Of a DNA stretch of 64,000 nucleotides, positions 16,298-62,819 are shown piece by piece. Under the pieces are notes generated by a model, which was not told the DNA's origin, did not search any database, and worked only from the letters and a program-made list of their open reading frames with translations. Both the position numbers and the translations under genes were made by a program. Origin of the DNA: Pristiophorus japonicus (Eukaryota); NCBI RefSeq assembly GCF_044704955.1, contig NC_091995.1:4278001-4342000 (forward strand). The letters run 5' to 3'. The number at the start of each line of letters is the position of its first letter. Position 1 is the first letter of the stretch.

Positions 16298-16367
16298 CGC
16301 AGCCACCGCTCAGCAGGTTCCCGGGGAAGAAGCGACTGTCCAGGTCGCTCACCAAACCCGTTGCCAT
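16298..16367 (-). CDS. ATF6B: First coding exon of an ATF6-beta (CREBL1)-like gene; downstream exons not found in the window
   Basis: ATG at 16367 gives MATGLVSDLDSRFFPGNLLSGGC+G|gtaagg (70 nt, phase 1). It resembles the ATF6B N-terminus as recalled (human MAELMLLSEIADPTRFFTDNLLSPEDW) and lies in a CpG island with CCAAT and GC boxes. Confidence 0.7.
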
Positions 16368-16830
16368 GACGCCCTAGCGCCCCCCGAGTGAATAATAATA
16401 ATAATCCAAAATGTGAAATAAACCCCCCGAGTATTAAAAGCAGGCGGGGCCGCCGTTGGCCGCTCCCACCGGCTCCAACTGGCCGAGACAAGGGCCCAGC
16501 GCGGCGTCACTGGCGCTCGGCCCAAATACACTGCCCCAGCTCCGAGTCCGACTCCCACTGAGGCCCCCGGAAACCTGTCTCCTTCACTCTGAGTGACAGG
16601 TACTCCGGCCAATCGTCTTCCCCAGGAGAGCCCCGCCCCAGAAACCCGCCTCCCTCACTCTGACTGACAGACACTCCGGCCAATCCGCTTCCCCCAAGCC
16701 CTCACCGGGCCGCCGCTGGCCAATCAGCGCCGCCCGAAGGCGGGGTTTGCAGTCATGATTCCGGTTGAAAGAGGCTTGCGCTCGGAACTTGTCGGTTGGG
16801 TTTAAATATTTAATGTTTAACGGCCGACAA
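16368..16830 (-). promoter_or_regulatory. CpG-island promoter / 5' UTR of the ATF6B-like exon
   Basis: High CpG density; CCAAT at 16609, 16680 and 16720; GC box CCCCGCCC at about 16631; a duplicated ~33-bp module ending in CCGGCCAATC. Confidence 0.7.
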
Positions 16831-16832
16831 TC

Positions 16833-59000: not shown

Positions 59001-62000
59001 TTGAGGGTCAGATATGACACCAATGTTGCGAGCAGTCTGGTTCAGCCTCAGACAGAGGTTGGGGAGAGGGATGGAGTCAGTGGCTAGGGAACGCAGTTTG
59101 TGGCGGGGACTGAAAACAATGGCTTTGGTCTGCCCAATATTTAATTGGAGAATATTTCTGCTCATCCAGTACAAGGAGTCTGATAATTCAGAGACCGCGG
59201 AGGGGTGGAGAGAAGTGGCGGTGAGGTAGAGCTGGGTGTCGTCAGCGTAGATGTGGAAACTGACACCGTGTTTTCGAATGATGTCACCAAGGAGCAACAT
59301 GTGGATGAGAAACAGGAGGGGGCCAAGGATAGATCCGTGGGGGGACACCAGAGGTAACAATGCAGGGGTGGGAAGAGAAGCCATTGCAGGAGATTTTCTG
59401 GCTATGATTATATAGATAAGAATGGAACCAAATAATTTCACCCAATATTGAAACAAAAATAGTAAACAGAATGGGACTAACTGAAACAATTCAAACGATT
59501 CCCCCCAGATGGTCCGGACTGAATCATGAGTCTAAAATTTGTCCAACAGCCAGTATTCAACTCGTGCTCCTCCCCAGTGCCCCGATCGGGTTACTAAGTG
59601 GAGGCTCGCAGGGTAGGTGGGAAGAGAGAAGTGTAACAACCCTTTGTTTACCAGTTATCGTGGATACGGGGAATAAATGGCGGGTTATACAACGGTGTCC
59701 TCAGGATCAAACATCACCCCCCATCACCCCCTTTTACAGGAGGGAGTGTGAGGGTGTGCGGCAGCAAGCGACCAGAGAAAGTCATTAACAGAATGAGTGT
59801 GTACAGTATACAAAATACACTGCAGCAACTCGCCACGCATTCTTCAGTACCTCCCAAACCCGCAGCCTCTACCACCTAGAAGGACAAGGGCAGCAGGCGC
59901 ATGGGAACACCATCACCTCCACGTTCCCCTCCAAGTTACATATGATCCTGACTTGGAAATATATCGGCCGTTCCTTCATCGTCACCGGGTCACAATCCTG
60001 GAACTCCCTCCCTAACAGCACTGTGGGAGCACCTTCACCACACGGACTGCAGCAGTTCAAGGTGGCGGCTCACCACCTTCTCAAGGGCAATTAGGGATGG
60101 GCAATAAATGCTGGCCTTGCCAGTGATGCCCACATCCCAGATACAAAAATACAATTGGGAACCCAAATGTGGCATGTTGCATTTTTCAGGAGTAGTAACC
60201 GAGTCTGATGTTGGACTTGTGATCTTCAGAATCATTTGTGGTGTGCATGTGAAGTTGAATCTGTTTGTGGATTGGTTGTAAAGTGATGAGATGAAAAGCA
60301 GAGTGTTTCATAGAACCATAGAAATTTACATCACGGAAGGAGGCCATTTTGGCCCATCCTGTCCGTGCCTAATCCCACTTTCCAGCTCTCAATCTGTAGC
60401 CCTATAGGTTACGGCACTTCAAGTGCACATCCAAGTACTTTTTAAATGTGGTGAGGGTTTCTGCCTCTACCACCCTTTCAGAGAGTGAGTTCCAGACCCC
60501 CACCACCCTTTGGGTGAAGACATCTCCCCTCAATTTTTAAATCTATACCCCCTGGTTGTTGACCCCTCTGCCAAGGGAAACAGGTCCTTCCTATCCACTC
60601 TATCCAGGCCCCTCATAATTTTATACACCTCAATCAGGTCTCCCCTCAGCCTCCTCTGTTCCAAGAAAACAACCTCAGCCGATCCAATCTTTCCTCAGCA
60701 TAAATTCTCCAGTCCTGGCAACATTCTCACAACTCTACTCTGGTTGTGAGTGTTCCACTGCCATGGTCAGAAGATGGTGGCAGGCGTTTCAGTAAATATC
60801 CACACCAAGTATTGCCCCATATGGTGTCGGCATGTGGAAGGTGTTGTCCAATAAAATGGGTCCGTAAGCCAGCCATTCCCATTGGACAGCTCGCATTGAA
60901 CACAACTGTCGTGCAAACGGAAAAGGCGGGGGGAGGGACCACAGACAGACCCAGCACTGGCTCCTCACCTCTTTAACTATCGTATTCTCTGTCACCTGGG
61001 CCTCCAGCTTCTGCCTTGCGGAAAGGCATTTACTGAGATCTGGAAGGGGAAGGAAGAAAGAGTTAAATACACACCCACACACCCGACCCCACACACTGCC
61101 GCCAGCACAGAATCATAGAATGGTTACAGTACAAGAGGCCATTCGGCCTGTCGAGCTCGTGCCAGCTCTCTGCAAGAGCACTTCAGCCAGGCCCACTCCC
61201 CCGCCCTTTCCCCGTACTCTGCAAATTCTTTTCCTTCAGGTACTTATCCAATTCCCCCTTGAAAGCCACGATTGAGTCTGCCTCCACCTTTCAGGCCGTG
61301 CATTCCGGATTATAACCACTCGCTGCGTAACATTTTTTTTCCTCGTGTCGCCTTTGGTTCTTCTGCCAATTACTTTAAATCTGTGTCCTCTGGTTCTCGA
61401 CCCTTCCACCAATGGGAACAGTTTCTCTCCATCTACTCTGTCCAGACCCCTCATAATTTTGAGCACACCTATCAAATCTTTTCTCAGCATTCTCTGCTCT
61501 AAGGAGAACAACCCCAGCTTCTCCAGTCTATTGATGTAACTGAAGTCCCTCACCCCTGGAACCATTCTCGTCAATCTTTTCAGCACCCTCTCCAAGGCCT
61601 TCACATCCTCCCTAAAGTGTGGTGCCCAGAATTGAACACAACACTCCAGTTAAGTCCAAGCTAGTATTTTTTGAAGGTTTATTATAACTTCCTTGCTTTT
61701 GTTCTCTATGCCTCTATTTATGAAGCGCAGGACCCTGTCTTTGGTTGACACGTTAAACCGAGCCCTGTCTGCTCTCAGGTGGACGCAAAATATCCCATGG
61801 CACTATTTCAAAGAAGAGCAGGGGAATTATCTCCGGTGTCCTGGGACCAATATTTATCCCTCAATCAACATAAGAAAAAAACAGATATCTGGGTCATTAC
61901 CACATTGCTGTTTGTGGGAGCTTGCTGTGCACAAATTGGCTGCCGTGTTCCCCACATTACAGTAGTTACTACACTCCAAAAGTATTCATTGCCTGTAAAG

Positions 62001-62819
62001 CGCTTTGAGACGCTCGATGGTCATGGAAGGTGGTGTAGAAATCAAAGTCTTTCTTTTTGATGCTTTTTTTAACCACTTTCTCACCCTACCCTGCCACGTA
62101 CAATGATTTGGGTACATATTCACCCAGGTCTCTCTGTTCCTGCACCCCCTTTAGAATTGTACACCAGTTTTTATTGCCTCTCCTCGTTCTTGCTTCCAAA
62201 GTGTCTCACTTCGCACTTTTTGGTGTTTGCTTAAAAGATAAAAAGATGTAGGAGAATCTGTCTGCCCACCCGCCCCACAGACACCGCCCCCCGTCTCATC
62301 CTGGGGCCCTCCCTCGACACGGAGATACCTGGCATAGCCCCACCACCAGACCGTCTCTCCCCTTCCCCCCCCTCCACACACACACTGGGCCCGGTTCCCC
62401 GGAGCCGCTGCCCCCCACATTCGGCCCTCTCCCCCCGGGCCTGGATCCTCTCCCTCCCCCACCACCCGGCTCACCGCCCCACAAACAGCACCAACACCGC
62501 CACCCATCTCACCCTGGGGCCCCAACACACCGTCCACCAACACGGAGAGCACCAGCACCGTCCCTCTCTCCCTCTCCACACCCGGCCTTCTCTCTCCCAC
62601 ACTCACTGGGCCCGGATCCCCAGACCCTCGCGCCCTCTCCTCTCCCCGGGGTCCCGGCTCACTCCCTCACTCCCCCAACACACTTCCCGCCCAGACCCTC
62701 TCTCCCCCTCAAAGCAGAAGCCGCGGAACGCCCCCCGCTTTGCCCGCGGACCCGCCTTTCTGCAGCGCCTGGTATTTCTCCAGCTCCGCCTGAAGCTTCC
62801 GCTGCACCGTCTCCGCCAT
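53069..62819 (-). CDS. PFDN6: Prefoldin subunit 6 (KE2), 126 aa; exons 62756-62819, 60969-61039, 55135-55259, 53069-53189
   Basis: Spliced 64+71+125+121 = 381 nt reads [126 protein letters not shown]. Phases are consistent; the first donor is GC. Confidence 0.95.
53204..53430 (-). mobile_element. Deu-domain-type SINE 3' part abutting the PFDN6 last acceptor
   Basis: Shared core and GGCGCTATGTAAATGCAAGTCTTT end. Confidence 0.7.
53432..53700. repeat. 33-bp minisatellite (CAGTACTGCCCCTCCGACAGTGCGGCGCTCCCT)n, about 8 copies
   Basis: Visible directly; explains the repetitive ORFs at 53405-53843. Confidence 0.92.
54075..55110 (-). mobile_element. CR1 RT/3' fragment in PFDN6 intron 3
   Basis: [27 protein letters not shown]. 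Confidence 0.9.
55420..56215 (+). mobile_element. L2 LINE 3' portion
   Basis: [25 protein letters not shown]; 3' end GGCGCTATATAAATACAAG. Confidence 0.8.
56245..56420 (-). mobile_element. SINE-like short derivative of the 20675-23850 LINE (5' head region fused to LINE 3' tail)
   Basis: 56272-56415 matches 23523-23665 and is joined directly to a GGGCGATAATTGCCGGCCTTGTCAG tail. Confidence 0.65.
56980..57803 (-). mobile_element. CR1 3' portion
   Basis: [23 protein letters not shown]. Confidence 0.9.
57805..58465 (-). mobile_element. RTE-clade LINE 3' fragment
   Basis: [29 protein letters not shown]; (ATG)n tail. Confidence 0.85.
58470..59430 (-). mobile_element. L2 LINE RT fragment
   Basis: [36 protein letters not shown]. 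Confidence 0.88.
59797..60140 (+). mobile_element. 3' end of the second LINE family
   Basis: [35 protein letters not shown] tail. Confidence 0.8.
60310..60725 (-). mobile_element. CR1 3' fragment
   Basis: CATAGAA tail; CR1 3' RT/UTR homology. Confidence 0.75.
61110..62225 (-). mobile_element. Old CR1 fragment interrupted by a Deu-type SINE (about 61745-62056, + strand)
   Basis: ORF 61236-61604 [21 protein letters not shown] core TTGCTGTTTGTGGGAGCTTGCTGTGC. Confidence 0.8.

What the first reader, a model, noticed from the sequence alone, without database searches (positions are those of the whole stretch)
16298..62819. Probable cartilaginous-fish MHC segment: ATF6B and PFDN6 about 37 kb apart with a B30.2 TRIM cluster between them
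Seen: an intact PFDN6, an ATF6B-like first exon, and PRY/SPRY-type TRIM copies interleaved. Established: in human, PFDN6 is in the extended class II region, ATF6B is in class III, and TRIM27/39-type B30.2 genes are in the class I/extended class I region, so they are not neighbours. Inference: this order mixes all three mammalian sub-regions. It could reflect the primordial jawed-vertebrate MHC or a lineage-specific rearrangement driven by TRIM duplication.
Basis: partly seen in the sequence, partly recalled or inferred. Interest (0 to 1): 0.7.

Follow-up and report, generated by a model that had tools for sequence, protein, structure and literature searches.

The report
Captured ATF6B exon heads B30.2 genes
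The supposed ATF6B gene here is only a stray copy of its promoter and first exon, one of 48 such copies in this shark genome, so the gene order is not an ancient MHC relic; three sister copies nearby sit in frame with a lone B30.2 exon and likely encode a young chimeric protein that would act as a ligase-less decoy among antiviral-type TRIM proteins.

Summary
The pieces are real but misread. PFDN6 is intact, and the contig is the MHC chromosome (class I genes, DAXX, ATF6B). The 70-nt 'ATF6B' exon is an orphan: no other ATF6B exon lies within 284 kb, and the real gene starts 2.64 Mb from PFDN6. The window copy is 1 of 49 matches to the exon start, 30 of them on this contig, mostly inside a large TRIM/B30.2 array. 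Between exon and PFDN6 lie one TRIM pseudogene and one fragment, not a cluster of B30.2 copies. Published shark, reedfish and lungfish tables keep ATF6B and PFDN6 5-230 Mb apart, so the 'primordial neighbour' reading fails.

What is new lies just outside the window. Three sister copies keep the native ATF6B splice donor and lie 10-12 kb upstream of an intact orphan PRY/SPRY exon, in frame. The three 196-aa products match three public 'TRIM39-like' proteins letter for letter. The promoter copies show no CpG decay, and the exon shows a hint of purifying selection. Expression was not tested. This is a likely young promoter-capture chimera; the window's own copy looks dead.

The parts
16285..16833 (-). 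Duplicated 5' end of ATF6B: CpG-island promoter with tandem CCAAT/GC-box units, 5' UTR, exon 1 and about 13 nt of intron
   Evidence: 83-85% identical to the real ATF6B 5' end at C19:6,981,668-6,982,306; CpG o/e 0.89 against 0.45 for the window; 1 of 49 pattern matches
16298..16367 (-). Orphan ATF6B-derived first exon (70 nt, 23 aa, phase-1 GT donor); 3-nt deletion and several changes against the real 73-nt exon; no intact partner exon found downstream
   Evidence: the nearest same-strand orphan SPRY exon, 38 kb downstream, is frameshifted
16834..18990 (-). CR1-type LINE inserted at the joint between the ATF6B promoter copy and a TRIM intron
   Evidence: RT-like ORFs (CR1 label from recall); sister copies have the joint without the insertion, 39 bp from the TRIM exon
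19027..24005 (+). Headless, tailless TRIM fragment: coiled-coil exons 19027-19122 (donor GT>GG) and 19216-19449, linker exon 23890-24005; head-to-head with the ATF6B copy
   Evidence: Pfam TRIM_CC, below cut-off
33601..40762 (+). RING-B-box-coiled-coil-B30.2 TRIM pseudogene, six exons: 33601-34000, 34090-34185, 34279-34512, 35850-35872, 35971-36086, 40212-40762
   Evidence: Pfam RING, B-box, PRY, SPRY; 1-nt insertion near 33770, RING His>Asn, stops at 34282, 40409 and 40616
53069..62819 (-). PFDN6, four coding exons, 126 aa, intact; the only complete copy found
   Evidence: two exon-3 matches genome-wide; the second, at C19:4.86-4.87 Mb, has exons 3-4 only within the 50 kb examined

Best explanation
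The window is a piece of a large TRIM/B30.2 duplication array on a shark MHC chromosome, and its 'ATF6B' exon is an orphan copy of the ATF6B promoter and first exon that was likely copied out of the real gene 2.7 Mb away and amplified with the array; in three sister copies it likely became the first exon of a new two-exon gene for a free B30.2 domain. Steps: (1) shown: at least 0.5 kb of ATF6B intron 1 travelled with promoter and exon, so the copy was made at DNA level. (2) shown: the upstream end of several copies is joined into a TRIM intron, and the block repeats with TRIM units. (3) shown: three copies keep the native donor and face an intact orphan PRY/SPRY exon in the same phase, giving a 196-aa frame. 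(4) inferred: the CpG-island promoter is still unmethylated in the germline and transcribes this unit. (5) inferred: the protein has no RING, B-box, coiled coil, bZIP or membrane anchor, so it would be a soluble, non-dimerising B30.2 domain that binds targets of sibling TRIMs without ubiquitinating them, a decoy or tuner. The window's own copy has lost that context and is likely dead. PFDN6 was likely moved into, or engulfed by, the array after parting from WDR46/B3GALT4.
For: Real ATF6B elsewhere. 49 matches, reversed-pattern control 0. 137 of the 150 scored SPRY matches are on this contig. ATF6B-to-TRIM joints. The native donor plus intron start occurs in exactly 4 places: the real gene and the three chimeric copies. 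No TRIM N-terminal exon inside their 10.4-12.5 kb introns. 3 of 3 predicted products are identical to public proteins P0242, P0241, P0121. CpG transition ratio 0.99 in promoter copies (11 alignments) against 2.6-2.9 in three LINEs, 2.35 in SPRY exons and 1.67 in RING exons. SPRY exon: 7 differences in 521 nt against 259 in 9124 in the intron (P=0.019); 5 synonymous and 2 replacement codons, pN/pS 0.12, P=0.01. Complete B30.2 fold predicted, mean pLDDT 86.9, residues 1-20 low.
Against: No read evidence for the splice. The public models are automatic and their support could not be seen; they may derive from this same DNA, so they are not independent of it. The selection signal rests on one effectively independent pair, and gene conversion could mimic it. 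Exon-1 identity among the three (0 of 70) is not significant (P=0.13). Across all copies the exon changes are mostly amino-acid changing (by eye about 11 to 1), so the peptide itself looks unconstrained. Promoter copies are related, so the CpG counts are not independent. Only 3 of the 19 C19 copies whose downstream DNA I examined (of 29; 5-8 kb only for two) have this layout. No such protein was found in another species (1 hit among 7 candidates, 107-343 aa only). The decoy role is inference from domain content alone.
Confidence: 0.62

Rival explanations
1. All ATF6B-derived copies, the three in-frame ones included, are neutral passengers of segmental duplication; the in-frame pairing is chance (TRIM last exons and ATF6B exon 1 are both phase 1), and any transcript is noise.
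For: Most copies lie among broken TRIM pieces; 4 of 25 C19 copies read have lost donor or frame, and changes are mostly non-synonymous; the three units differ by only 0.4-3% in the intron, so an open frame is expected.
Against: The SPRY exon differs less than its intron and mostly at silent sites; only these three keep the native donor context; no CpG decay.
Confidence: 0.28
2. The copies matter as portable CpG-island promoters or enhancers for neighbouring full-length TRIM genes, in either direction, and not as coding exons.
For: No CpG decay; the copy recurs at a fixed place in a 38.7-kb TRIM unit; promoter-only versions sit in a second repeat family on other contigs.
Against: The divergent TRIM fragment has a dead donor and no ATG in its first exon; in the 38.7-kb unit the copy faces the 3' end of the intact TRIM. 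Not exclusive of the best explanation.
Confidence: 0.15
3. ATF6B, TRIM and PFDN6 are true neighbours that preserve the primordial jawed-vertebrate MHC order.
For: All three gene types are on the MHC chromosome here and in white shark; sawfish atf6b has A33-like TRIMs and butyrophilin-like genes beside it.
Against: The exon is an orphan and the real gene is 2.64 Mb away; three outgroups keep the two genes 5-230 Mb apart and PFDN6 beside B3GALT4/WDR46.
Confidence: 0.03

Closest known systems
Elasmobranch MHC chromosome (Verissimo et al. 2023, PMC10751288; text parts 1-3 of 7, term searches, supplement parts 6, 7, 16, 24 of 98 read)
   Same: [quoted passage not shown]
   Different: The main text never mentions TRIM or B30.2 (0 occurrences). 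PFDN6 here is alone in a TRIM array, away from WDR46/B3GALT4. No ATF6B fragments are described in the parts read.
Exon-shuffled class IV TRIMs of fish, ftr06 and ftr52, and primate TRIMCyp (Boudinot et al. 2011, PMC3137616; passages read)
   Same: A new domain combination made by exon shuffling inside an expanding RBCC-B30.2 family linked to the MHC.
   Different: Those keep RBCC and swap the C-terminal domain. Here RBCC is dropped, B30.2 is kept, and promoter plus start codon come from an unrelated ER-stress transcription factor gene.
B30.2 (PRY/SPRY) domains of BTN3A1, TRIM21 and pyrin (PDB matches)
   Same: Residues 24-195 of the chimera cover the whole domain as in the crystallised stand-alone constructs (E 3e-44 to 6ita_A).
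   Different: The natural proteins carry Ig/TM, RBCC or PYD parts; the chimera has only a 23-aa ATF6B-derived leader. Ligand unknown.
ATF6B
   Same: Promoter, 5' UTR and first 23 codons.
   Different: No bZIP, transmembrane or luminal exon near the window; cannot make a transcription factor.

Membership tests
ATF6B gene (window copy) | N-terminal exon homologous to ATF6B | tested here: met
ATF6B gene (window copy) | Downstream exons with bZIP, transmembrane and luminal parts | tested here: not met
   none in 284 kb, 116 kb of it downstream, twice the real intron 1
PFDN6 | Prefoldin_2 domain, best match to prefoldin subunit 6, open frame with splice sites | tested here: met
   intron 1 needs a GC donor
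Class IV TRIM (RBCC-B30.2), window gene | RING, B-box, coiled coil, PRY and SPRY exons in order | tested here: met
Class IV TRIM (RBCC-B30.2), window gene | Open reading frame and full set of RING zinc ligands | tested here: not met
   one frameshift, three stops, His>Asn
Class IV TRIM, orthology to human TRIM27/TRIM39 | One-to-one clade with the mammalian genes | not tested
   no tree with human TRIMs was built; 'TRIM39-like' is an automatic label
TRIM family (196-aa chimera) | RING-B-box-coiled-coil | tested here: not met
   only PF13765 and PF00622; no such exons in the introns
Chimeric gene by promoter/first-exon capture | Parts from two unrelated genes, splice sites in phase, open frame | tested here: met
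   3 of 3 units
Chimeric gene by promoter/first-exon capture | Spliced transcript or protein observed | not testable with these tools
   only automatic public models
Chimeric gene by promoter/first-exon capture | Purifying selection | tested here: inconclusive
   pN/pS 0.12 on 7 changes, one independent pair
MHC chromosome | Class I genes and framework genes on the same contig | tested here: met
   24 of 41 MHC_I matches on C19 at 40-57 Mb, DAXX 0.26 Mb, ATF6B 6.9 Mb, fibrinogen-C exons 6.56-6.58 Mb
MHC chromosome | Class II genes | tested here: inconclusive
   MHC_II_beta profile rang nowhere in the genome
Primordial MHC gene order | Adjacency shared with outgroups | tested here: not met
   white shark, reedfish, lungfish tables; chimaera and Xenopus not tested

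The most novel reading that the evidence does not exclude
The 5' end of ATF6B became a portable, still-active CpG-island promoter and start-exon cassette in this shark lineage. It spread to about 50 sites and founded a new selected family of B30.2-only decoy proteins that tune a TRIM arsenal of hundreds of genes under ATF6B's own transcriptional control.
Probability: 0.22. Interest if true: 0.7.

Novelty: new variant of a known kind. Interest (0 to 1): 0.42.

Why it matters
For MHC evolution it is a warning: an orphan first exon inside a TRIM array mimics synteny, and PFDN6's place in this genome cannot be read as ancestral. If the chimera is expressed, it is a very young gene (copies 0.4-3% apart) with its parent locus, its dead sibs and its intermediate states all on one chromosome arm. 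That is a rare chance to study how a housekeeping promoter is captured by an expanding immune family and whether RING-less B30.2 proteins act as decoys. Public annotation hides the origin under the label 'TRIM39-like'.

Tried and rejected
Expression: no RNA holder was listed for window 16200-16830; this is no evidence either way, and no reads could be laid. A direct protein-database search with the 23-aa exon alone was not possible, so its identity rests on ATF6B proteins found through the bZIP exon of the real gene. Headless-TRIM idea (antisense transcription from the promoter into the coiled-coil exons): rejected, since that exon has no ATG and a dead donor in 3 of 3 copies read. Chimeras from the 38.7-kb unit (exon 1 to linker and SPRY exons behind an antisense TRIM): inclusion of the linker exons breaks the frame; only a double skip would fit; the SPRY frame is open in 2 of 3 read; no public model found. 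A transposon carrying the cassette: blast comparison of 30 copies showed different end points and no shared element beyond ordinary LINEs (output partly cut); terminal repeats were not searched for specifically. Other genes near PFDN6: 102 non-repeat ORFs of 70 aa or more in 284 kb gave only 4 transposon hits; short exons would be missed. PFDN6 beside WDR46/B3GALT4 on C23: none in 200 kb. The tree of 22 of 30 copies (8 short or truncated ones left out) does not resolve the order of events. ERSE motif in the promoter units: looked for by eye, not seen. Papers: six searches returned none that, from listing and abstract start, describes ATF6B fragments or an ATF6B-B30.2 chimera; subscription journals and most of the 98 supplement parts were not seen.
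Full report
Setting. The window is G000:C19:4,278,001-4,342,000 in a 5.9-Gb genome. Most long ORFs are LINE or LTR pieces. C19 (100 Mb) is the MHC chromosome: 24 of 41 MHC_I matches lie on it at 40-57 Mb, DAXX is at 0.26 Mb, ATF6B at 6.89-6.98 Mb and two fibrinogen-C exons, likely tenascin-X by position and strand, at 6.56-6.58 Mb. Of the 150 SPRY matches scored (422 candidates), 137 are on C19 and 75 fall between 1 and 6 Mb. The window thus sits inside a very large TRIM array. 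Public proteins identical to products of this contig carry the label Pristiophorus japonicus; the other close relatives are sharks and rays.

PFDN6. Four exons on the minus strand give 126 aa without stops. Each matches human prefoldin subunit 6 in order. Intron 1 requires a GC donor; the nearest GT is out of frame. Exon 3 has two matches in the genome; the second, 0.53 Mb away, comes with exon 4 only in the 50 kb examined. WDR46 exons and a galactosyltransferase ORF resembling B3GALT4 lie on C23 at 7.44-7.48 Mb with no PFDN6 in 200 kb. In white shark, reedfish and lungfish PFDN6 lies within two table rows of B3GALT4 and near WDR46 (PMC10751288 supplement). The split seen here is therefore derived or an assembly error.

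TRIM content. One six-exon TRIM at 33601-40762 has RING, B-box, PRY and SPRY matches but a 1-nt insertion, a His>Asn change in the RING and stops at 34282, 40409 and 40616. A second fragment at 19027-24005 has coiled-coil and linker exons only. The window holds one B30.2 exon, and it is broken.

The ATF6B-like exon. The peptide of 16367-16298 is homologous to shark ATF6B N-termini. The bZIP exon at C19:6,892,997 retrieves proteins named ATF-6 beta as its best hits, and P0001 maps to seven exons at 6.893-6.925 Mb. A 73-nt exon 1 at 6,981,753 gives the N-terminus of the 687-aa public protein P0244. Around the window the same proteins find only exon-1 copies. The window copy shares about 550 nt with the real 5' end at 83-85% identity, promoter and donor included. 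A 24-nt pattern at the start codon has 49 matches with at most one mismatch, control 0: 30 on C19 with the real gene among them, 19 elsewhere. A DNA search had 141 candidates, 40 scored, many of them promoter only. Of 25 C19 copies read, 21 keep a 70-nt frame and donor and share a 3-nt deletion against the real exon, which points to one founding duplication. In several copies the upstream end is joined to a TRIM intron 39 bp before the coiled-coil exon; in the window a LINE sits at that joint.

Verdict on the synteny claim. Real ATF6B and PFDN6 are 2.64 Mb apart here and 10.8, 5.5 and 230 Mb apart in white shark, reedfish and lungfish. The human positions are recalled. That sharks mix genes of the mammalian sub-regions is the main result of PMC10751288 (text parts 1-3 of 7 read). 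Its sawfish table shows A33-like and TRIM39-like genes among class III genes, and its reedfish table puts atf6b two rows from vps52. PMC11401434 (passages) notes ATF6b near TNX in elasmobranchs. PMC3137616 (passages) already proposes RBCC-B30.2 genes in the proto-MHC.

What the evidence led to. Three copies, at C19:4,386,523, 4,711,054 and 4,910,127 (the first lies 44.5 kb past the window's end), keep at least 0.5 kb of ATF6B intron 1. The native donor sequence occurs only there and in the real gene (4 matches). Each lies 10.4-12.5 kb upstream of an intact PRY/SPRY exon on the same strand, with no RING, B-box or coiled-coil exon between. Both splice sites are phase 1, and joining them gives 196 aa. 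After that prediction a database search returned a cluster of three 196-aa proteins named TRIM39-like, identical to the three predictions. None of the other 119 listed hits has an ATF6B-like start, and a search with residues 1-40 found only this cluster. Residues 24-195 cover a whole B30.2 domain; the model has mean pLDDT 86.9 with a low-confidence leader.

Signs of life, and their limits. In the promoter copies CpG sites change by transition no faster than other C/G sites (33 of 818 against 95 of 2331, ratio 0.99). LINEs give 2.6-2.9 and TRIM exons 1.7-2.4. This suggests escape from germline methylation, but the copies are related. Between the two oldest chimeric units the SPRY exon differs at 1.3% against 2.8% in the intron (P=0.019), with 5 silent and 2 replacement codons (P=0.01); this is one pair and seven changes. 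Over all copies exon-1 changes are mostly replacements (by eye). Splicing and translation were not observed, and the support behind the public models is unknown.

Mechanism. Shown: DNA-level duplication of the ATF6B 5' end, its spread with TRIM units, and in-phase pairing with an orphan B30.2 exon in three units. Inferred: non-allelic recombination among TRIM and LINE repeats as the driver; transcription from the captured promoter; and a soluble B30.2 protein that, lacking RING and coiled coil (roles from established knowledge), would compete with full-length sibs for a target without ubiquitinating it. I put the orphan reading of the window exon at about 0.95, an expressed chimera at about 0.6, and a selected decoy role at about 0.25.

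Score. The finding as written is largely an artefact of a duplicated first exon on a chromosome whose organisation is published (about 0.15 alone). The unannotated origin of three chimeric gene models and the roughly 50-fold spread of an ATF6B promoter raise it to 0.42.

Noticed in passing
G000:C23:7,444,390-7,484,318 (L109, L112, L113, L027, L028): WDR46 exons and a B3GALT4-like ORF lie on C23, not on the MHC contig, without PFDN6 in 200 kb; a conserved extended class II block is split (or misassembled).
   Followed up: partly
window 62756-62750 (-): PFDN6 intron 1 appears to start with GC (GC-AG intron) in the only complete copy.
   Followed up: partly
G000:C19:4,863,710-4,867,563 (L037): Partial PFDN6 duplicate, exons 3-4 only, 96-99% identical, inside the TRIM array.
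   Followed up: partly
L096-L101 (C2310, C3852, C11) and further hits: Promoter-only copies of the ATF6B 5' region sit in another repeat family of 13 kb or more at 88-94% identity on unplaced contigs and C11; what they drive is unknown.
   Followed up: partly
G000:C19:5.13-5.57 Mb (L084-L091, L042-L044): A 38.7-kb tandem unit holds the ATF6B cassette, an antisense full TRIM and split TRIM halves, which looks like an inversion amplified afterwards.
   Followed up: partly
window 37700-40050: About 2.3 kb of C/T-rich tandem repeats (GC skew -0.8) in the last intron of the TRIM pseudogene; similar tracts lie upstream of the real ATF6B (L102, L103).
   Followed up: no
G000:C3:316.6-319.3 Mb: Nine matches cover the whole MHC_I alpha1-alpha2 profile in long open frames, i.e. 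intron-less class I copies off the MHC chromosome.
   Followed up: no
G000:C23:7.528-7.542 Mb (L117-L119): ORF pieces resembling an endogenous retrovirus or LTR element near WDR46; observed only.
   Followed up: no
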